NCBI GenBank assembly: GCA_944391805.1
Contig: CALXUY010000081.1
Coordinates: forward strand, 5,914 to 69,913
DNA length: 64,000 nucleotides
Reading direction: 5' to 3'
Source: an uncultured Clostridia bacterium
GTDB lineage: Bacteria; Bacillota; Clostridia; Oscillospirales; CAG-272
The notes under the pieces are model-generated. The model was not told the origin of the DNA and did not search any database. It saw only the letters and a program-made list of their open reading frames with translations. Below, one piece after another: positions 42,167 through 49,100 of the stretch (positions are counted from its first letter, which is position 1; each line of letters starts with the position of its first letter). A program made the translations under genes and the position numbers.

Positions 42167-44329
42167 TCAGGCCGGCTCCTCCTCCATGCGGGACATTTCC
42201 CGCTGTGCCATAACCAACGAATAATAGATGCCCTTCCTTGCCATCAGCTCGTCATGTGTCCCCACCTCGGCAATTCTGCCCTGGTCCATCACCACCAGCC
42301 TTGTGGCATTGCGCAGCGTGGAAAGCCGGTGGGCAATGGCGATTGTTGTGCGTCCGCAGGTCAGCACCTTCAGCGCGTCCTGAATCAGCTTTTCGGTTTC
42401 GGTGTCCAGAGCCGATGTGGCCTCATCGAGAATCAGGATGCTGGGATTATGCAGCAGCGCGCGGGCAATGGCCACACGCTGGCGTTCCCCGCCCGAGAGC
42501 GAATGGCCGCGCTCCCCTACATAGGTCTGGTACCCGTCCGGCAAATTGATGATAAACTCATGCGCGCCTGCCATTTTTGCGGCCTGTATGACCTCCTCGC
42601 GGCTCGCATCCGGCTTGGCATACGTCAGGTTCTGCAGCACGGTTCCGGCAAACAGGAAGTTCTCCTGCAGCACTACGCCCATGCGGGAGCGCAGCAGACT
42701 CTGCGGAATATCCCGGATGTCGTTGCCGTCAATGCGGATGCTGCCGTCGGTCACATCATACATGCGCAGAATCAGGTTGATCAGCGTGGACTTCCCCACC
42801 CCGGATTTTCCGACCAGACCGATAAACTCACCCGGCTCGATCCGCAGCGAAACATCGTGCAGAATCTCCTCGGATTCGTCATAGGCAAACGAAACGTGAT
42901 CCAGCTCAATCCGCCCCTGCAGGTCGGCAACAGGCAGTGCGTCGGGGCGGTCGGTCACGTCAATCGGCTCATCCAGCAGCTCATAAACGCTATTGAGAGA
43001 GGTCATCATATGCAAAAACATCCGCGGTACCCGCAAAAGCGTGGCCAGCGGCGCGTAAATCATGCTGGAATAGGAGGAGATCTGTGACATCTCACCGGCA
43101 GTCATGCTGCCCTCAAGCATTTTGCTGCCCACGTAATACAGCAGCACATATTCGCCGATGCCCATCAGAAAATTGAGAATCGACATCAGCACCGCCCAGA
43201 TGCGCTCCTGGCGGAGCTGGGAGCGGCGTTCCTCGGCCGACACCGAAAGGAAGCGCTCTGCCTCCTTCTCCTCCATCCCGTAGGATTTCACCACGCGGAT
43301 GCCCGAAAAAATATCGTGCAGAATGGCATTGCCCCGGGCGTTGAGCGCGCGTACCCGACGGGAAAGCGTGCGCATGAACCGCCAGAACAGCCGGAATGCC
43401 AGCGTGATCAGGGGAGCGGGAACCAGCACCAGCAGCGCCAGACGCCAGTCGATCACAAACAGAACCACCGTCACAGCCACCAGAAGAATGCCCTGCTCGA
43501 GCAGATTCGGAAGCTGATTGATCAGAAACTGCTTGATGCGTGCGGTATCTCCGCTGACCCGCTTCATCAGCTCGCCCGAGGTCTGCCTGGAAATGCGCGC
43601 GATCGAAAGCTCCTGAATTTTGCGGAATACCAGATCCCGCAGGCGCACAATGAGCCGGTTGCCGGCAATGGTGAGAAAATACCCACGCGCCATGGAGATG
43701 AGCCGGCGCAGCAGGTTGAGCGCCAGAATGCTGAAGATCACCCCGAGAAAGCCGGCCAGAAAGGCGCCGGCCGCCTCGTTGCGGATGTAATCGTCCACCA
43801 GCACGCGGTTGATGTCTGGCAGCCAGAGGCCGATTACCGTGGTGAGCAGAAACAGCACCACGGTGACAGCCAGATACTTCCACTCGTGAGAGGCCAATCG
43901 GATCAGCCGCAGCAGTGCGCGTTTGCCCGAGGTACGCGGCGTCTGCGGTTTTGCCGAGGCTCTCCCGGCCGGCTCCTCCCTGCTGCGCAGCGCCCGGTTG
44001 GCCGCCCGCACAAATTCGGACGCCGCCCCCTGCATCCGGCAGTCTCCCCGCGCAAAGAGCACCGGCTCGCCATTCCGCCGGGTATATTCCACAAATACAC
44101 AGCCCACTCCCTTGCGGAAATGAAAAGCCTCGATCCGGTCTGCCGGCTCATTGACGGTCTGTGTTTCCCCCACCCACACGGTGAGCCGGTCGGCAAAAAG
44201 AAATGCCTGCGTCTCGGCCTGTGCCGCCGGATCGGTCGGGTGGAGATTGGTGGTCAACGCCGCAGCAACCGACGCCGGGTCGGCCTCCGGCTCCAGTCTG
44301 CGCAGGGCCTGTGCCTGTTTATCCGTCAC
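42167..44329 (-). CDS. ABC exporter (permease-ATPase) with an N-terminal cytoplasmic extension of about 140 aa; third gene of the ABC-DUF1854-ABC operon
   Basis: The GTG start lies after a GGGGGG SD, directly downstream of the DUF1854 stop. Nucleotide-binding domain motifs are GKSGVGKST, LSGGERQR and ILILDEATS. The N-terminal domain resembles that of the first ABC gene. Confidence 0.85.
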   Translation of the reverse strand: MTDKQAQALRRLEPEADPASVAAALTTNLHPTDPAAQAETQAFLFADRLTVWVGETQTVNEPADRIEAFHFRKGVGCVFVEYTRRNGEPVLFARGDCRMQGAASEFVRAANRALRSREEPAGRASAKPQTPRTSGKRALLRLIRLASHEWKYLAVTVVLFLLTTVIGLWLPDINRVLVDDYIRNEAAGAFLAGFLGVIFSILALNLLRRLISMARGYFLTIAGNRLIVRLRDLVFRKIQELSIARISRQTSGELMKRVSGDTARIKQFLINQLPNLLEQGILLVAVTVVLFVIDWRLALLVLVPAPLITLAFRLFWRFMRTLSRRVRALNARGNAILHDIFSGIRVVKSYGMEEKEAERFLSVSAEERRSQLRQERIWAVLMSILNFLMGIGEYVLLYYVGSKMLEGSMTAGEMSQISSYSSMIYAPLATLLRVPRMFLHMMTSLNSVYELLDEPIDVTDRPDALPVADLQGRIELDHVSFAYDESEEILHDVSLRIEPGEFIGLVGKSGVGKSTLINLILRMYDVTDGSIRIDGNDIRDIPQSLLRSRMGVVLQENFLFAGTVLQNLTYAKPDASREEVIQAAKMAGAHEFIINLPDGYQTYVGERGHSLSGGERQRVAIARALLHNPSILILDEATSALDTETEKLIQDALKVLTCGRTTIAIAHRLSTLRNATRLVVMDQGRIAEVGTHDELMARKGIYYSLVMAQREMSRMEEEPA

Positions 44330-44341
44330 TGCAATCCCCCC

Positions 44342-44923
44342 TCACAGGTAAAGCTCCAGCCTGCGCTGGCTTTTGGCATCCAGCTTGCTCACATCGGGAA
44401 TTTCAAACCGGTTGCCGTTGACGTCCGAAAACACAATGCGTCCCGCATCCACCCGCTGGATGCTCCGATAGGTGTCGTGCAGGGTAAACCGCACCTCCCC
44501 CTCCGGCGTCTGCACCTTCCAGTAGGAGAAGCCATACCGTTCCTTGACCGACAGGATGCGCAGAACCTCCGGCGCGTAATAGCGCCTGCGCAGCTCATTC
44601 TCGAGCAGCTCGCGGGTCTCCCCTGCAAACAGCCCGGTGCTGCGGATGATGCCAAGCTCGCGGTGCTCCTCATCCAGCACAGAGATGTACTCCCACAGGC
44701 AGTCAAACGGGAACTCCCTGCAGAGAATGACCCTTGTCTCCTTGCCGTCCAGTGTAAGCCACAGCAGGCCGTTCCGGCTTGAAAACACCGCGTTTTCAGG
44801 TGTAAGCCACACCGTTTTGGAAATTTCGTCGAGCGAGCGCGCGGGAGCTCCGTGCTTTTCCCCGTCTCTCTCCCGACTCTCCCGTCTTCCCGGCCCCGGC
44901 CGGCCATGCATAAAATCGTCCAT
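44342..44923 (-). CDS. DUF1854 domain protein (ABC-transporter-associated)
   Basis: The C-terminal 150 aa (VWLTPENAVFSSRNGLLWLTLDGKE...RYGFSYWKVQTPEGEVRFTL...DVNGNRFEIPDVSKLDAKSQRRLELYL) matches the DUF1854 pattern. The family is typically sandwiched between two ABC exporter genes. Confidence 0.8.
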   Translation of the reverse strand: MDDFMHGRPGPGRRESRERDGEKHGAPARSLDEISKTVWLTPENAVFSSRNGLLWLTLDGKETRVILCREFPFDCLWEYISVLDEEHRELGIIRSTGLFAGETRELLENELRRRYYAPEVLRILSVKERYGFSYWKVQTPEGEVRFTLHDTYRSIQRVDAGRIVFSDVNGNRFEIPDVSKLDAKSQRRLELYL

Positions 44924-44944
44924 TCGCTTCCCCGCCTTTCCCCA

Positions 44945-47179
44945 TCACTCCACAATGCCTGCGCTCCGCAGCGCCTCCATTTGCAGCGTGAACAGTTTTT
45001 TGTAAATCCCGTCCTCTTTTTGCAGCAGCTCCCGATGCGTTCCGCACTCGGCCACCCTGCCGTGCTCAATCACCACCAGCGCGTCGGCATCCCGCAGAGT
45101 GGAAAGCCTGTGCGCGATCATAATCGTGGTTTTCCCCTCGATGAGCCTGGCCAGCGCCTCCTGAATCCTGCGCTCGGTTCCGGTGTCCATCGCGGCGGTT
45201 GCCTCATCCAGAATCAGAATTTTGGGATTTTTGAGGATGGCGCGCGCAATTGAGAGGCGCTGCCGCTCTCCGCCCGAAAGATCCTGATAGCCAAAGCCGA
45301 TGCGGGTGTGATAAGCGTCCGGCAGCTTCATGATGAATTCATGCGCGCCGGCGCAGCGGGAGGCCTCAATCACCTCCTCATAACTCGCGTCGGGGCGGGC
45401 ATACCGGATGTTATCCAGAATGGTACCCATGAACAGGTAGGTTTCCTGCGAAACAATGGCGATGTTCTGATAGAGCGAGGAGAAGGCCAGCTCGCGCACC
45501 GGAATGCCCCCCACGCGGATCTCTCCCTCCTCCGCGTCGTAGAGCCGCATCAGGAGATTGGCCAGCGTGCTCTTTCCCGCGCCCGTATGCCCGACAATGC
45601 CCAGCACCCCTCCCTCGGGTACCGAAAAGCTGACATGGTCGATAACGCGCTTGCCCTTGATGTAGGAGAAGGACACGTTGTCAAATTCCACGCTGCCTCC
45701 GAGCACCTCCGGGCGAACCGGATGCTCCGGCTCACAGACGTCTGGCTGCGCGTCCATGATTTCAAACAGGCGCTGCATGGCGTTGGTGCAGTCGGCGCTG
45801 CGGTTCATCATATCCGAGAAAAAATGCAGCGGGGAGTAGATCATGCCCACGTAAGCGATAAAGGTCATCAGCATTCCGTATGTCAGCCCACCGTAGCCGG
45901 TGATGACCATCCAGCCGCCCACCGCCCACGAGATGATTGTGCCCAGATACAGCACCACGCCCGAGATATGCCCAGCATAGTTGTGAAACAGCGAGAGCTT
46001 TCGGTCGCTCTCGGCCAGTGTTTCGCTGCGGACGGTAAAGCGGTCGATCTCCTGCTGCTCCCGCGAAAAGGCCTTGACCACCCGCATCCCCGAGAGCACG
46101 TCGGAGAGCAGCGAGTTGAGCTGACGCGAGCCGGAAAAACGGCGGGCATGCAGCTTTTTCTCGTTGCGGTACACCCAGCGCATCATGAAGAAAAACACCG
46201 GAACCGTGATCAGGGTCAGCAGCGCCAAGAGGGGCTGAATCACCGCCATGAGCACCGTGAGCACAACGACCTGCACGATGTTGACGATCAGATACGGCAG
46301 CCCGTCGCAGAAGAACTCGTAAATGGTGTTGGCGTCCTCGTTGACCTGTGTCATCAGGCCGCCGGTCTGCCGCCCGGAAAAGAAGCTGAGCGACAGCCGC
46401 TCGATCGAATGGAAGATGGTTTTTTTCAGCTCATACACCATTTTGGCAGCCACCGACGAGGTAATCCAGTTGTTGACCATGGTCGCCAGCATTTTGAGCA
46501 GGCGGGTGGCGATCACAAGCCCCAGCACCAGCAGAATCTCTCCGTAAAACGGTCCGGCTCCGTCAATGACCTCGTCATAAAAGAAGCCCTTGGAGAAATA
46601 GGGGGTGAGAATGCTCATGGCGGTGAGCACCACCAGCGACACCAGAATCAGCACCAGGCTGACCTTGTATTTGGCAAAAAAGCCTGCCATACGGCGGAAC
46701 AGCTTTCCCTTTTCCATACAATGCGGGCAGATCCTTCGGTTGAGGTCGGGATACGGCATCCCGCATTTGGGGCAGCATTTGGAGGAGGGCAGATCCTTGG
46801 GATCCGGCTCGATCGGCTCCCCCTGCGCCAGCCTTTTGAGGTACTTGACAAACAGCAGAACCGATTCCTTGCAGAAATTGGTAAACGACGCCAAAAGAAC
46901 AGTATCCTCCCGGAAGCGTGCGAGCAGCCGCCCGGTGGAGCGCTGTTCCTCCACCGCGATGTTGCTCAGCTCCCGCAAAGGGTACTGTTCCAACGGACGC
47001 GACTCCCGATCCAGCACATAAAGGCTCTGAAGATCGGCGAGCAAAAAAACTTCCCCCGGCTCCTGCTCCCGGGTGCGGTCGCATCGTGCCGCCAGCTGCG
47101 GTGCGATGCCGGCTTCTTTGATTTTGTCGGTCACCCATGTAGGGATTCTGTCTATTTCCAGCATGAAGCTCCTCCGCAT
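44945..47179 (-). CDS. ABC exporter (permease-ATPase) with an N-terminal PH-like domain plus zinc-ribbon extension; first gene of the ABC-DUF1854-ABC operon
   Basis: The preferred start is MRRSF at 47179, 5 nt after a GGGAGG SD. Codons upstream of it in this frame are almost exclusively GAA/CAA/CCA (A-ending), unlike the rest of the gene. A zinc ribbon (CCPKCGMPYPDLNRRICPHCMEKG) lies before TM1. Nucleotide-binding domain motifs are GHTGAGKST, LSGGERQR and ILILDEATA. Confidence 0.8.
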   Translation of the reverse strand: MRRSFMLEIDRIPTWVTDKIKEAGIAPQLAARCDRTREQEPGEVFLLADLQSLYVLDRESRPLEQYPLRELSNIAVEEQRSTGRLLARFREDTVLLASFTNFCKESVLLFVKYLKRLAQGEPIEPDPKDLPSSKCCPKCGMPYPDLNRRICPHCMEKGKLFRRMAGFFAKYKVSLVLILVSLVVLTAMSILTPYFSKGFFYDEVIDGAGPFYGEILLVLGLVIATRLLKMLATMVNNWITSSVAAKMVYELKKTIFHSIERLSLSFFSGRQTGGLMTQVNEDANTIYEFFCDGLPYLIVNIVQVVVLTVLMAVIQPLLALLTLITVPVFFFMMRWVYRNEKKLHARRFSGSRQLNSLLSDVLSGMRVVKAFSREQQEIDRFTVRSETLAESDRKLSLFHNYAGHISGVVLYLGTIISWAVGGWMVITGYGGLTYGMLMTFIAYVGMIYSPLHFFSDMMNRSADCTNAMQRLFEIMDAQPDVCEPEHPVRPEVLGGSVEFDNVSFSYIKGKRVIDHVSFSVPEGGVLGIVGHTGAGKSTLANLLMRLYDAEEGEIRVGGIPVRELAFSSLYQNIAIVSQETYLFMGTILDNIRYARPDASYEEVIEASRCAGAHEFIMKLPDAYHTRIGFGYQDLSGGERQRLSIARAILKNPKILILDEATAAMDTGTERRIQEALARLIEGKTTIMIAHRLSTLRDADALVVIEHGRVAECGTHRELLQKEDGIYKKLFTLQMEALRSAGIVE

Positions 47180-47214
47180 ATGTACCTCCCGCCGAAACGG
47201 GAGCCGCCGGGCAA

Positions 47215-47385
47215 TCAGTCGCAGCGGTTTTTCTGGTTGTTGTTCTTGTTCTGGTTCTGGTTGTTCTGGTTCTGGTTGTTCTGGTTCTGATTGTTGTTCT
47301 GGTTTTGGTTCTGGTTGTTCTGGTTCTGGTTTTTGTTCTGATTGTTCTGGTTCTGGTTGTTGTTCTGATTCTGGTTGTTCTGCAT
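47215..47385 (-). CDS. Candidate 56 aa Asn/Gln-repeat small ORF (MQNNQNQNNNQ...KNRCD) upstream of the ABC operon
   Basis: The ATG at 47385 lies 9 nt after a strong AAGGAG SD (47400-47395). The frame uses CAG/AAC (G/C-ending) codons, as does the rest of the genome. It ends at the TGA at 47217-47215, 35 nt before the ABC start. It falls below the 60 aa cut-off of the ORF track. Confidence 0.35.
   Translation of the reverse strand: MQNNQNQNNNQNQNNQNKNQNQNNQNQNQNNNQNQNNQNQNNQNQNKNNNQKNRCD
47228..47380 (-). repeat. Hexanucleotide tandem repeat (AACCAG)n with variants, about 25 units
   Basis: The plus strand reads CTGGTT CTGGTT GTT CTGGTT... throughout. The repeat generates open frames on both strands (PEPEQ, NQ and TR frames; GSGCSG and LVLV on the plus strand). 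Confidence 0.85.
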
Positions 47386-47462
47386 AACTGTATACTCCTT
47401 TTTCTTGAAATCCCATTGGGATTTTGGATTTCAGCATTCAGTATGCACCGAATCAGGCCGGA

Positions 47463-48860
47463 TTATACATGCGGCTTGACAGGACAGCAGGTGGTCATTT
47501 CCTCCGATAGCTGCGTAAGGAAGCCGGCAAAGCAGAGCGAGGCAATAAAGGAAAGCACAAACTGCACCATCCACATCCAGCCATAGGTTTGCTGCAGGAA
47601 AATTTCGCAAATTTTGGCAGCAAGAGAAAGCGCCAGAAACACCCATACCGGAATGGTTCTCTTATGCAGCCGCAAGGCTGACAGCTCTGCCGACCACTCC
47701 GAGCCGGCCGGCCGCTGCGCCGCATACGCCAAGGCATACCGGCCGGCCATTGCCGCGAGCGCACGAACCACGAGCAAAACAAATACCACCAGCAGAATCG
47801 CCTCCAGCACGCTCAGGATCTGCACCGTCAGATACTGCTGATAGGCATTCGGCAGATAAAGCGCGTCTCTTGGGACAAACTCCTTGAGATAGCGCATATT
47901 GAGCGCGCTTCTGGCAGTTCCCACACCGATCAGGAGCAGACCGGCGGCCACACATGGGAGACGCTTTTCGACAAGCCCGCCCAGCATGAGCAGTCCACAG
48001 AAAAACAGCAACGCGCAGAACCAATCCGGCAGAACCGAATAATACATCAGGGACAGGTTGATGAAGAATACGCTGCCGACCCGAAAAAAGGTGAGCGCCG
48101 CGTTCATACGGCGGTGGAGCAGCAGGCCCGAATTGGAGAGCACCTCCTCCTCATACTCCCGGCAGAGCTGCTCTCTCCATGGCGTGTCGGATGCGGCAAG
48201 CCGCATAAAGCGGAGGTAGCGCACCAGCCAGATCACCCCAATCACACCGGAGATCACCGCGGCACCCGTCCGCAGCGGATTGGCATAGGAAAACCAATCA
48301 AATGAAAAGAAGGGATTGCCGTCGTCATACTCAAACGAGGTCAGCACGGTCAGCTCGGGCAGAAGCGTGAGCAGTGAGTGCAGGACAACAAATCTCCCGG
48401 AGGCCTTTGCCATCCGCTCGCACCATGTCCTTCCCCGTTTTTCCCGAAGCAAAACGGTTCCGCCGTGGAATTGCGCCAGAGCAGACAGGCCGCTGAAAAA
48501 CCGGCGCCACGCAGGCAGGAGATAATACCACTGAAAAACCAGCAGCACAAAGCTGAACAGAAGCACCCACATCGGCTGCTCATACTGATTGAGGGATTCG
48601 GAGGATTTCCGGAGCACCACATCCACCAAAAGCTCGGCAAGAATCTGCCCCAGCCCCACCCAGAGCATGGCGCGAAAGGCTTTTTGCGAATCCAGTAGCT
48701 GCTCGCTCCTGTCCAGATCCGCCAGCCTGGAAAGCCCCAGTAGCAACAGCAGATACCCAATGGCATCCGGCAAAATATCCATCACGCCGAGCACCGGATT
48801 CCAAAGGAAACAGCCGGCGGCAACCAGAAGCCCAAACCCCAGTTTCCGATTGCTTAACAT
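47463..48860 (-). CDS. Multi-pass membrane protein of unknown function
   Basis: The start MLSNRKLGFGLL at 48860 lies after an AAAGGAG SD. At least 10 hydrophobic segments are predicted. No family was recognised. Confidence 0.6.
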   Translation of the reverse strand: MLSNRKLGFGLLVAAGCFLWNPVLGVMDILPDAIGYLLLLLGLSRLADLDRSEQLLDSQKAFRAMLWVGLGQILAELLVDVVLRKSSESLNQYEQPMWVLLFSFVLLVFQWYYLLPAWRRFFSGLSALAQFHGGTVLLREKRGRTWCERMAKASGRFVVLHSLLTLLPELTVLTSFEYDDGNPFFSFDWFSYANPLRTGAAVISGVIGVIWLVRYLRFMRLAASDTPWREQLCREYEEEVLSNSGLLLHRRMNAALTFFRVGSVFFINLSLMYYSVLPDWFCALLFFCGLLMLGGLVEKRLPCVAAGLLLIGVGTARSALNMRYLKEFVPRDALYLPNAYQQYLTVQILSVLEAILLVVFVLLVVRALAAMAGRYALAYAAQRPAGSEWSAELSALRLHKRTIPVWVFLALSLAAKICEIFLQQTYGWMWMVQFVLSFIASLCFAGFLTQLSEEMTTCCPVKPHV

Positions 48861-49100
48861 CGTTTCTCCTTTCTGCGAAAGAGGCGGCCCGGCCTCCCTC
48901 TTCGGGAAGGCCGCGTGCGGCGCTCTCCGCAAGCGTTGTTGTCTGTACCGGGCAATATGATTCCCGGAACTCCGGCGGCCTGCCGCTCCGCATTCCCTGC
49001 AGAGGTACGGCGCATCACCAAGCCGCCGACAGGATCCGTGAACGCGTCCGGATATTGCCCTTTCCGCCGCCCGACACCGTGCGCAGGCCGCGGCCGATGA

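What the first reader, a model, noticed from the sequence alone, without database searches (positions are those of the whole stretch)
47215..47437. Frame ambiguity at an (AACCAG)n repeat: an SD-led Asn/Gln-rich 56 aa small ORF versus the annotated acidic PEPEQ extension of the ABC gene
The long ORF 44945-47437 begins with about 70 residues of (PEPEQ)-like repeat. In that frame the codons are almost entirely GAA, CAA and CCA, all A-ending. Downstream, the same gene uses CAG for every Gln I checked and mostly CCG for Pro. The ATG at 47437 also lacks an SD. In the adjacent frame a strong AAGGAG lies 9 nt before the ATG at 47385. It opens a 56-codon ORF, MQNNQNQNNNQNQNNQNKNQNQ...NQKNRCD, built from the genome-preferred CAG and AAC codons. 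That ORF stops 35 nt before a well-placed GGGAGG-5 nt-ATG (47179), which gives an ABC protein beginning MRRSFMLEID. The annotation is therefore probably wrong. The operon may instead be preceded by an Asn/Gln-repeat leader peptide, or by an untranslated hexanucleotide microsatellite in its 5' UTR. A Gln/Asn-rich upstream ORF could couple ABC-DUF1854-ABC expression to Asn/Gln-tRNA charging or ribosome stalling. It could also be an exported product. Length variation in the repeat could tune expression.
Basis: partly seen in the sequence, partly recalled or inferred. Interest (0 to 1): 0.65.

Follow-up and report, generated by a model that had tools for sequence, protein, structure and literature searches.

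The report
Unannotated Asn/Gln-rich forespore-type microprotein gene
The (AACCAG)n tract is a real, separately promoted small gene for a 56-residue protein that is about 88% asparagine and glutamine and probably made in the developing spore; it is not an acidic N-terminal extension of the ABC transporter nor a leader peptide for it.

Summary
The sequence observation holds. The Asn/Gln frame (47385-47215, minus strand) has CAI 0.95 and GC3 0.89. The PEPEQ frame has CAI 0.29 and GC3 0.04.

Comparative data settle the frame. In 14 same-genus loci an SD-led MQNN... ORF of 41-74 aa occupies this position, with different DNA. The ABC frame is closed 0-34 codons upstream of a conserved M-[FL]-E-I-D-R-I-P start in 16 of 18 loci. 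The ABC gene therefore starts at ATG 47164, not 47437 or 47179, and only the 739-aa form is in the public collection searched.

Eight same-species contigs carry in-frame length alleles of 56, 57, 61 and 66 aa, with invariant flanks.

The leader-peptide reading is not supported:
- 0 of 29 ABC homologue loci outside the genus have such an ORF.
- Other genera carry it after a homologous polytopic membrane gene, or standing alone with a canonical terminator.

The gene has a conserved GTATA-N18-CATACTG promoter of forespore (sigmaG/F) type. In this genome the same motif precedes spoVAC, a thioredoxin and a yetF-like gene.

The likely product is an abundant small spore protein, analogous to but not homologous with gamma-type SASP.

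The parts
47464..47468 (-). -35 element GTATA of a forespore-type (sigmaG/sigmaF-like) promoter. It overlaps the TAA stop (47465-47463) of the upstream membrane-protein gene.
   Evidence: Coordinates. The motif G[TCA]ATA-N17/18-[CG]ATA[CA]T[GAT] is present 36-53 nt before the ATG in 13 of 14 genus loci. It is also present in six out-of-genus loci and weakly in a seventh. In L003 the same GCATAAA lies inside the coding sequence, so it is not conserved merely as a stop codon.
47439..47445 (-). -10 element CATACTG, 18 nt after the -35 element.
   Evidence: Mapped C. difficile SigG promoters have the same form: CD2375 GTATA-N17-CATAATA and sspA GAATT-N17-CATAATA (PMC7438776 supplement). In this genome the motif precedes spoVAC, a thioredoxin and a YetF/DUF421 gene.
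47408..47424 (-). 5' UTR stem-loop (AAATCCC-AAT-GGGATTT) close to the predicted transcript start. Inferred to be an mRNA-stabilising 5' hairpin.
   Evidence: RNAfold results. The equivalent position in relatives holds GTAATT..AATTAC (L003, L005, L006, L012, L017, L096, L097) or other complementary arms (L014, L102). The pairing is kept while the sequence changes.
47395..47400 (-). Shine-Dalgarno AAGGAG, 9 nt before ATG 47385.
   Evidence: An A-rich GGAG-type SD precedes the ATG in all 14 genus loci: AAAGGAG or AAGGAG in 11, AGGAG in L015, AAAGGGAG in L009, and only GGAG in L004.
47215..47385 (-). Small gene of 56 codons plus TGA: MQNNQNQNNNQNQNNQNKNQNQNNQNQNQNNNQNQNNQNQNNQNQNKNNNQKNRCD. It has 31 N, 18 Q, 3 K, 1 R and net charge +3.
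   Evidence: CAI 0.947 and GC3 0.89. Orthologous ORFs of 41-74 aa occur in 14 genus loci with divergent DNA (CAA versus CAG) and a constant net charge of +3 to +5. The ORF was called as a gene (57, 61, 66 aa) on same-species contigs.
47231..47382 (-). Imperfect tandem repeat (periods 6, 15 and 54 nt) inside the small gene. It is the source of in-frame length alleles.
   Evidence: Tandem Repeats Finder. Same-species alleles differ by +3, +15 and +30 nt, giving 56, 57, 61 and 66 aa. The flanks are otherwise invariant (one SNP between SD and ATG in L105), and the single SNP inside the ORF (AAC>AAT) is synonymous in the N/Q frame.
47186..47203 (-). GC-rich 3' hairpin CTCCCG-TTTCGG-CGGGAG directly after the small gene, with no U-tract.
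   Evidence: Folds at -11 to -19 kcal/mol in 13 of the 14 genus loci (L002's window fell downstream of its hairpin). Arm sequences differ between species, for example GCCCGC/GCGGGC, CCCCTC/GAGGGG and CCCTCTC/GAGAGGG.
47179..47184 (-). Conserved TACATA box abutting the hairpin. Function unexplained. In this species it supplies the non-conserved ATG 47179.
   Evidence: G[GA]TACAT[AC] is invariant in 14 genus loci. It is unique in this genome: only 1 of 491 TACATA sites follows a GC hairpin. ATG 47179 is absent in L102, which reads ACATCGGG.
47169..47175 (-). Shine-Dalgarno GGAGGAG of the ABC1 gene.
   Evidence: An SD precedes the conserved start in all 18 genus loci.
44945..47164 (-). ABC1 gene with the corrected start: 739 aa, MLEIDRIP.... 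It has an N-terminal cytoplasmic domain with a zinc ribbon, then ABC_membrane and ABC_tran domains.
   Evidence: Start conserved as M-[FL]-E-I-D-R-I-P. The exact 739-aa product is in public collections, while the 830-aa and 744-aa forms are not. Pfam domains. Best NCBIfam hit is CphA_assoc_ABC, below its cut-off.
47165..47437 (-). Spurious in-frame open stretch (the PEPEQ 'extension'). It is open only because the A/C/G-only repeat lacks AAT-AAN junctions in this species.
   Evidence: CAI 0.288 and GC3 0.04. ATG 47437 lies 2 nt after the -10 box and has no SD. The ABC frame is closed 0-34 codons upstream in 16 of 18 genus loci. It is open in L102 but has no ATG there. Over the small ORF this frame has stops in 10 of 14 loci.
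47463..48860 (-). Upstream uncharacterised polytopic membrane protein gene (465 aa from ATG 48860). It is the neighbour of the N/Q gene that is conserved across genera.
   Evidence: No Pfam, NCBIfam or PDB family. Homologues at 22-32% identity in other genera are followed on the same strand by an N/Q ORF in L059, L093, L096 and L097, and by a short N/Q/K/H codon run in L094 whose ORF was not read. These are among 11 loci examined.

Best explanation
The tract is an independent small gene, and the ABC1 gene begins at ATG 47164.

Shown:
- An ORF led by an SD and an ATG encodes a 56-aa protein that is basic (net +3), very probably disordered, and 88% Asn/Gln.
- The frame, start signals, composition and net charge are conserved across species, while the DNA and the length are not.
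- Slippage in the internal 3/6/15-nt repeats gives in-frame length alleles even within the species.
- The PEPEQ frame is a compositional by-product.

Inferred:
- The gene is transcribed from its own GTATA-N18-CATACTG promoter by forespore RNA polymerase (sigmaG, possibly also sigmaF).
- The message starts about 47433-47430. It carries a stabilising 5' stem-loop and a strong SD, and ends at or is processed at the GC hairpin.
- The peptide therefore accumulates in the developing spore.
- Its most likely role is that of an abundant small spore-core protein. It could serve as an amide-rich amino-acid and nitrogen reserve, or as a matrix or nucleoid-associated protein. That would be functionally analogous to the gamma-type SASP that clostridia lack.
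- Its position before the ABC-DUF1854-ABC operon is local gene order in this genus, not a regulatory or cargo relationship.
For: Coding frame:
- Codon statistics favour the N/Q frame.
- 14 genus loci carry an MQNN-type ORF of 41-74 aa with a GGAG-type SD and synonymous CAA/CAG and AAT/AAC turnover.
- Net charge is +3 to +5 in all 14.
- Gene callers called the ORF on same-species contigs.
- Alleles of 56, 57, 61 and 66 aa are all in frame, and the one ORF SNP is synonymous.

ABC start:
-.

Independence from the ABC operon:
- 0 of 29 out-of-genus ABC1 loci have an N/Q/K/H run within 1.5 kb.
- N/Q genes are present in genomes without a match to this transporter's N-terminal domain: G289, G165 and G271.
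- Stand-alone copies have canonical terminators.

Promoter type:
- The motif is present in 13 of 14 genus loci, in six of 8 out-of-genus loci, and weakly in a seventh, L058.
- It matches mapped C. difficile SigG promoters (PMC7438776 supplement).
- In this genome a strict motif scan gives 82 hits against 25 in the control. The only credible downstream genes are spoVAC, a thioredoxin, a YetF/DUF421 gene and this gene.
- trxA1B1 is sigmaG-dependent in C. difficile (PMC10880999).

Spore capacity and context:
- The genome encodes an alpha/beta SASP, GPR and SpoVAC/EB.
- SASP genes are sigmaG-dependent, and SspE is absent from clostridia (PMC3533761).
Against:
- The promoter assignment rests on consensus similarity. 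The last -10 base is G rather than A in most genus members.
- The genome's own alpha/beta SASP gene shows no clear copy of the motif.
- The phyletic test was uninformative, because SpoVAC is near-universal in the order: 33 of 34 candidate N/Q-positive genomes (chosen by pattern-hit counts; only a few verified) and 34 of 36 N/Q-negative genomes.
- No GPR-type cleavage motif (EFASE-like) is present, so the reserve-protein analogy is functional speculation.
- The 3' hairpin lacks a U-tract, so read-through into ABC1 in this genus cannot be excluded.
- The conserved hairpin-TACATA box is unexplained.
- Low-complexity sequence defeats homology searches, so the 'family' is defined by composition, signals and synteny rather than by alignment.
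Confidence: 0.68

Rival explanations
1. Leader peptide or uORF. Translation of the Asn/Gln-rich ORF would sense Asn-/Gln-tRNA supply or stall ribosomes, and so control ABC-DUF1854-ABC through the hairpin that contains an SD-like GGGAGG arm.
For: - The ORF lies 50 nt before ABC1 on the same strand.
- The hairpin pairs CTCCCG with CGGGAG next to the ABC1 SD and has no U-tract.
- The arrangement is kept in 14 genus loci.
Against: - The linkage is genus-specific: 0 of 29 ABC1 loci elsewhere have it.
- The same kind of ORF is followed elsewhere by pcrA, by convergent genes or by canonical terminators.
- The distance from the hairpin to the ABC start varies from 8 to about 70 nt.
- The real ABC1 SD (GGAGGAG, 47175-47169) lies outside the hairpin.
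- There is no alternative antiterminator pairing.
- The ORF is 41-74 codons long and length-polymorphic within the species, which is atypical of attenuator leaders.
- It has its own sporulation-type promoter.
Confidence: 0.07
2. Cargo or partner of the exporter. The ribosomally made poly-Asn/Gln peptide would be the 'amino-acid polymer' handled by the ABC-DUF1854-ABC system, in parallel with the cyanophycin-synthetase-linked DUF1854 transporters of proteobacteria.
For: - DUF1854 with an ABC transporter has been proposed as an efflux system for an amino-acid polymer (bioRxiv 10.1101/072470).
- The best NCBIfam hits are CphA_assoc_ABC and CphA_assoc_prot.
- This genome has no cyanophycin synthetase, so the cargo is unknown.
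- The two are adjacent in this genus.
Against: - NCBIfam scores are far below the cut-offs: 492 and 521 against 880, and 84 against 150.
- Adjacency is absent in 29 of 29 loci outside the genus.
- N/Q genes exist in near-complete genomes with no match to this transporter's N-terminal domain.
- Genus members L007, L011 and L016 have the ABC operon but no N/Q ORF.
- The peptide has no export leader and the ABC has no C39 peptidase domain.
Confidence: 0.07
3. Functional partner of the upstream polytopic membrane protein. The N/Q peptide would be a substrate, regulator or accessory of that protein. This is compatible with forespore expression.
For: - The membrane gene followed by the N/Q ORF on the same strand recurs in the genus and in at least four other genera.
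- The membrane protein has diverged to 22-32% identity, and the downstream gene differs between loci.
Against: - The N/Q gene carries its own promoter at the end of the membrane gene.
- Other families in the order have stand-alone N/Q genes with no such neighbour.
- About half of the membrane-protein homologue loci lack an N/Q run.
- Inherited synteny within one family can explain the pairing.
- The membrane protein matches no known family, so no mechanism can be tested.
Confidence: 0.12
4. Untranslated microsatellite, or a real PEPEQ N-terminal extension of ABC1.
For: - The ABC frame is open from 47437 in this species, and open (without an ATG) in its closest relative.
- Simple repeats can expand neutrally.
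Against: - Codon usage in that frame is alien: CAI 0.29 and GC3 0.04.
- There is no SD, and ATG 47437 sits 2 nt after the -10 box.
- The frame is closed in 16 of 18 genus loci.
- Public gene calls give 739 aa.
- The SD, ATG, stop, composition and charge of the N/Q frame are conserved although the DNA repeat structure is not.
Confidence: 0.03

Closest known systems
Gamma-type small acid-soluble spore protein SspE (Pfam SASP_gamma, Bacillales)
   Same: - Small, hydrophilic and repetitive, and rich in Gln/Asn.
- Its gene stands alone behind a forespore sigmaG-type promoter with a strong SD.
- Length and repeat number vary widely between species.
- Clostridia lack SspE (PMC3533761), which leaves the niche open.
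   Different: - No sequence homology and no Pfam hit.
- No GPR cleavage motif.
- Composition is far more extreme: about 80% N+Q across the family and 88% here.
- Expression in spores is not shown.
Alpha/beta-type SASPs (PF00269)
   Same: Small, forespore-expressed proteins. One copy is encoded elsewhere in this genome. The N/Q peptides are basic (net +3 to +5), which would permit nucleic-acid association.
   Different: Alpha/beta SASPs have a conserved helical DNA-binding fold and sequence. The N/Q peptides have neither.
Ribosome-mediated leader-peptide attenuators (hisL, pheL, trpL, thrL)
   Same: A short upstream ORF enriched in one or two amino acids, followed by a hairpin before an operon.
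   Different: - The ORF is 3-5 times longer and polymorphic in length.
- There are no alternative terminator and antiterminator structures and no U-tract.
- It is not linked to the operon outside one genus.
- It has its own sporulation-type promoter.
Cyanophycin-metabolism-associated ABC transporter with a DUF1854 protein (NCBIfam NF052233/NF052234; Price et al., bioRxiv 10.1101/072470)
   Same: The downstream operon's three proteins hit these models best. The proposed cargo is an amino-acid polymer.
   Different: - Scores are below the equivalog cut-offs.
- There are two ABC genes with extra N-terminal domains.
- The genome has no cyanophycin synthetase.
- There is no conserved link to the N/Q gene.
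Bacterial N/Q-rich prion-like domains, such as that of Clostridium botulinum Rho (recalled from memory, not tested)
   Same: Extreme Asn/Gln composition of the kind that drives amyloid or condensate formation.
   Different: Those are domains within large proteins. Here the whole product is a 41-74-aa stand-alone peptide, and no aggregation data exist.

Membership tests
Gamma-type SASP (SspE, PF04259) | Sequence match to the SASP_gamma profile | tested here: not met
   No Pfam or NCBIfam family at E<=0.01. HMMER's composition filter limits sensitivity for this sequence.
Gamma-type SASP (SspE, PF04259) | GPR protease cleavage motif (E-[FI]-A-S-E-type pentapeptide; recalled from memory) | tested here: not met
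   Reading the 14 genus peptides finds no E-x-A-S-E. Ala, Ser and Phe are nearly absent.
Gamma-type SASP (SspE, PF04259) | Forespore (sigmaG) promoter and abundance in dormant spores | tested here: inconclusive
   A promoter motif of sigmaG type is conserved.
Leader-peptide transcription or translation attenuator | Conserved physical linkage of the leader ORF to the regulated operon | tested here: not met
   0 of 29 out-of-genus ABC1 loci carry it. The ORF occurs before unrelated genes.
Leader-peptide transcription or translation attenuator | Mutually exclusive terminator and antiterminator (or SD-sequestering) structures overlapping the ORF end | tested here: not met
   There is a single hairpin with no U-tract. 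The ABC1 SD 47175-47169 lies outside it, and the spacing to the ABC start varies from 8 to 70 nt.
RiPP or bacteriocin precursor with a dedicated ABC exporter | Leader with a double-glycine or other cleavage motif, a Cys/Ser/Thr-rich core, and a C39 peptidase domain on the transporter | tested here: not met
   The peptide is about 80% N/Q with no GG motif. ABC1 and ABC2 have only ABC_membrane and ABC_tran domains plus unassigned N-terminal domains.
Cyanophycin-associated ABC/DUF1854 system (NF052233/NF052234), for the downstream operon | Score above the NCBIfam equivalog cut-off, and a cyanophycin synthetase in the genome | tested here: not met
   Scores are 492 and 521 bits against 880, and 84 against 150. 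The best TIGR02068 hit is 91 bits against 850.
Real protein-coding small gene (general criteria) | Conserved start, SD and stop, frame-specific conservation with synonymous turnover, and in-frame polymorphism | tested here: met

The most novel reading that the evidence does not exclude
Spores of this order of uncultured gut Clostridia may contain a lineage-specific, non-homologous replacement for gamma-type SASP. It would be a hypervariable, basic, almost pure poly-Asn/Gln microprotein made from a sigmaG-type promoter. It would fill the spore core as an amide-nitrogen reserve and/or a gel- or glass-forming matrix. Repeat slippage would generate length alleles between strains of one species. 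In one family the gene has stayed coupled to a fast-evolving polytopic membrane protein that may handle it.
Probability: 0.28. Interest if true: 0.7.

Novelty: new variant of a known kind. Interest (0 to 1): 0.5.

Why it matters
- It corrects the gene model. ABC1 starts at 47164, and a separate 56-aa gene lies upstream.
- It removes a tempting but unsupported regulatory story for the ABC-DUF1854-ABC operon.
- It adds a well-documented instance to an undescribed family of tiny Asn/Gln-only proteins that homology searches cannot detect, because composition filters reject them, and whose open alternative frames can mislead a longest-ORF reading.
- If these peptides are abundant spore-core proteins, they would be the first candidate analogue of gamma-type SASP in clostridia. 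They would also be a natural example of a stand-alone prion-like or IDP sequence with strain-level length polymorphism. That bears on spore dormancy, germination nutrition and strain typing in gut anaerobes.

Tried and rejected
1. A homology search with the peptide scored nothing, although 1792 word candidates were found. The cause is the composition filter.
2. An exact look-up of 10 small ORFs in the protein collection found none. Same-species contigs later showed gene calls of 57-66 aa.
4. An Rfam scan of 47050-47560 found nothing meaningful.
5. The sigma70 scan found no promoter. The TGATT-N17-TGTAAT resemblance I first noted fails at the essential A2 of the -10 box and is better explained by the 5' stem-loop.
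6. The search for related loci with a membrane-protein alignment had no usable conserved block. The single-protein scan gave one locus, L102.
7. Phyletic correlation with sporulation was uninformative, because SpoVAC is present in 67 of 70 genomes regardless of candidate N/Q status.
8. The genome's own alpha/beta SASP gene was tried as a promoter control and showed no clear motif. spoVAC and gpr served instead.
9. Reading TACATA as a sigmaE, sigmaK or sigmaG -10 box was rejected, because the downstream bases are not conserved.
10. Literature searches for Asn-rich small proteins in Clostridia, and for consensus strings, returned nothing relevant.
11. The membrane protein has no Pfam, NCBIfam or PDB match.
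Full report
**Observation**

On the minus strand the longest ORF (47437..44945, 830 aa) begins with an acidic PEPEQ-like stretch. An overlapping frame holds a 56-codon ORF (47385..47215) reading MQNNQNQNNNQNQNNQNKNQNQ...NQKNRCD, preceded by AAGGAG at 9 nt.

Tandem Repeats Finder sees an imperfect array at 47231-47382 with periods of 6, 15 and 54 nt.

I built a codon table from 958 long ORFs of the 3.0 Mb assembly. It gives CAG 85%, CCA 9% and GAA 34%. Against that table:
- The PEPEQ frame scores CAI 0.288 and GC3 0.04.
- The N/Q frame scores CAI 0.947 and GC3 0.89.
- The ABC body scores CAI 0.776 and GC3 0.77. It uses CAG 20/CAA 2 and CCG 16/CCA 1.

The tract is the only one of its kind in the genome.

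**Which frame and which start**

I retrieved orthologous loci from same-genus genomes, where ABC1 is 64-74% identical, and aligned the upstream regions.

- Thirteen of them, plus the closest species found in the named genome collection (L102, an uncultured Clostridia MAG), carry an ATG-initiated ORF of 41-74 aa at the same position. It starts MQN in 13 of the 14 (MNLNQNN in L008).
- All have an A-rich GGAG-type SD.
- The DNA is not conserved as a repeat. Some species use mostly CAA, others CAG. Composition (N 51%, Q 29%, K 5%, R 5%) and net charge (+3 to +5 in all 14) are conserved.
- The ABC frame is closed 0-34 codons upstream of a conserved, SD-preceded M-[FL]-E-I-D-R-I-P start in 16 of 18 loci. 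It stays open only in the window and in L102, where it has no ATG.
- The exact 739-aa product from ATG 47164 is in the public protein collection under NCBI, ENA and Logan sources. The 830-aa and 744-aa forms are not.

So the PEPEQ extension is not a public annotation. It is an open frame left open by composition: stops in that frame need AAT followed by AAN, which this species happens to lack.

**Within-species variation**

Eight contigs from other samples encode the identical ABC1. On six of them gene callers called the small ORF, at 57, 61 or 66 aa.

Alignment shows four alleles:
- 56 aa in the window.
- 57 aa (+AAT).
- 61 aa (+15 nt).
- 66 aa (+30 nt).

The promoter region, hairpin and ABC start are invariant. 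L105 has one SNP in the 5' UTR, between the SD and the ATG. The single SNP inside the ORF (AAC>AAT) is synonymous in the N/Q frame.

**Is it tied to the ABC operon?**

I searched 401 genomes of the order with the ABC1 N-terminal domain and took 29 loci outside the genus. None has a run of 9 or more N/Q/K/H codons within 1.5 kb.

N/Q small ORFs do occur elsewhere in the order.
- In other genera of the same family they follow a homologue of the upstream polytopic membrane protein, at 22-32% identity. The next gene there is pcrA/uvrD or a convergent gene (L059, L093, L096; L097's downstream gene was not read).
- In other lineages, both in another genus of this family (L058) and in another family of the order, they stand alone with canonical U-tract terminators (L058, L043, L039; L042 also stands alone, though no terminator was noted).
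- Near-complete genomes such as G289, G165 and G271 have an N/Q gene but no match to the ABC1 N-terminal domain.
- Genus members L007, L011 and L016 have the ABC operon without the N/Q gene.

These results argue against both a leader-peptide relationship and an obligate cargo-exporter relationship. I reached this conclusion before consulting earlier notes.

**Signals around the gene**

Earlier notes from this scan, on other genomes, suggested a sporulation-type promoter. I tested that here.

- A motif G[TCA]ATA-N17/18-[CG]ATA[CA]T[GAT] lies 36-53 nt before the ATG in 13 of 14 genus loci. The exception, L004, has a ~150-nt insertion.
- In the window it is GTATA (47468-47464), then 18 nt, then CATACTG (47445-47439).
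- In L003 the -35 element lies inside the membrane gene's coding sequence rather than at its stop. Its conservation is therefore not a stop-codon artefact.
- Six of eight out-of-genus N/Q genes have the same arrangement, and a seventh (L058, CAAAATT) matches only weakly. L039 does not.
- Experimentally mapped C. difficile SigG promoters have this form: CD2375 GTATA-N17-CATAATA and sspA GAATT-N17-CATAATA (PMC7438776 supplement).
- Within this genome the motif is enriched (82 hits against 25 in the reversed control). The only credible genes directly behind it are spoVAC, a thioredoxin, a YetF/DUF421 protein and the N/Q gene.
- spoVA is a classical forespore operon. trxA1B1 is sigmaG-dependent in C. 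difficile (PMC10880999). From my own recollection, YetF is a spore inner-membrane protein in B. subtilis.
- The genome encodes an alpha/beta SASP, GPR and SpoVAC/EB.

ATG 47437 lies 2 nt after the -10 box. It is therefore upstream of, or at, the predicted transcript start.

The 5' UTR forms a stem-loop whose arms differ between species but stay complementary. A GC hairpin follows the stop, with different arm sequences in different species.

In this genus the hairpin lacks a U-tract and abuts an invariant TACAT box. That combination is unique in the genome, and I cannot explain it.

**Interpretation**

Shown: this is a translated-looking, conserved, independently signalled small gene. ABC1 starts at 47164. 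The repeat is hypervariable but stays in frame.

Inferred, with moderate confidence: transcription by forespore sigmaG/sigmaF RNA polymerase and accumulation in the spore.

Speculative: a role like that of gamma-type SASP, as an amino-acid or nitrogen reserve, a core matrix, or a nucleoid-associated protein. Clostridia lack SspE (PMC3533761). The peptide is not a member of that family, because it has no profile match and no GPR motif.

**Limits**

- Homology tools fail on this composition.
- The phyletic test against sporulation capacity was uninformative, because SpoVAC is near-universal in the order.
- The genome's alpha/beta SASP gene shows no clear copy of the motif.

**The downstream operon**

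Its three proteins hit the NCBIfam cyanophycin-associated ABC and DUF1854 models best, but far below the cut-offs. The genome has no cyanophycin synthetase. DUF1854 has been proposed as part of an amino-acid-polymer exporter (bioRxiv 10.1101/072470). This keeps a low-probability cargo hypothesis alive, but the distribution data speak against it.

**Novelty and score**

I found no published description of such proteins. Earlier agents in this scan flagged the same family in other genomes.

This case adds four things:
- Strain-level length alleles.
- The corrected ABC start.
- The cross-genus pairing with a polytopic membrane gene.
- An in-genome promoter control.

I rate it a new variant of a known kind (small forespore proteins), with interest 0.5.

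Noticed in passing
window 47179-47203 (minus strand); L002-L018 and L102 equivalents: A GC hairpin abutting an invariant G[GA]TACAT[AC] box is conserved after the small gene in all 14 genus loci. It is unique in this genome: only 1 of 491 TACATA sites follows a hairpin. It has no U-tract, and out-of-genus copies have ordinary terminators instead. Its function is unexplained. It could be a processing site, a protein-binding site, or part of an ABC promoter.
   Followed up: partly
window 42167-47164 (minus strand): ABC1, the DUF1854 protein and ABC2 hit the NCBIfam 'cyanophycin metabolism-associated' models best, but well below the cut-offs. The 94%-complete genome has no cyanophycin synthetase (best hit 91 bits against a cut-off of 850). 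The exporter's cargo in this lineage is therefore unknown.
   Followed up: partly
window 47463-48860 (minus strand); L059, L093, L096, L097: The upstream 465-aa polytopic membrane protein has no Pfam, NCBIfam or PDB relative. It evolves much faster than ABC1: 32% against 69% identity to the same genome, G003. It nevertheless keeps an N/Q small gene directly downstream in several genera.
   Followed up: partly
L002 (G010), L004 (G009), L010 (G021), L007/L011 (G016/G013): Variants occur within the genus. In L002 the N/Q frame runs on through the hairpin region (65 aa with a ...KSGFCLPMGGTYLPAR tail). L004 has a ~150-nt insertion between the promoter region and the ORF. L010 has a divergent, less N/Q-rich ORF containing Cys (MQNNEQKKNQSQNVRCDKCKK...). 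L007 and L011 lack the gene altogether.
   Followed up: no
genome contigs C14 (~36571, minus), C87 (~843, plus), C8 (~31110, plus): The same forespore-type motif (G[ACT]ATA-N17/18-CATAxTA) sits 22-30 nt before a thioredoxin gene, a YetF/DUF421 gene and spoVAC. These are candidate members of this organism's forespore regulon.
   Followed up: partly
window 47073-47387 (+) and 47305-47586 (+): The complement of the repeat gives long open 'shadow' frames: a 104-aa Cys/Ser/Gly-rich frame and a 93-aa Leu/Val-rich frame. They could be mistaken for genes. They are mirror images of the A/C/G-only coding repeat.
   Followed up: no
window 48861-49100 (minus strand): A 240-nt gap containing a terminator-like hairpin (GAGGGAGGCCGGGCCGCCTCTTTC) separates the 242-aa and 465-aa membrane-protein genes. 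They are probably not one tight operon with secA.
   Followed up: no
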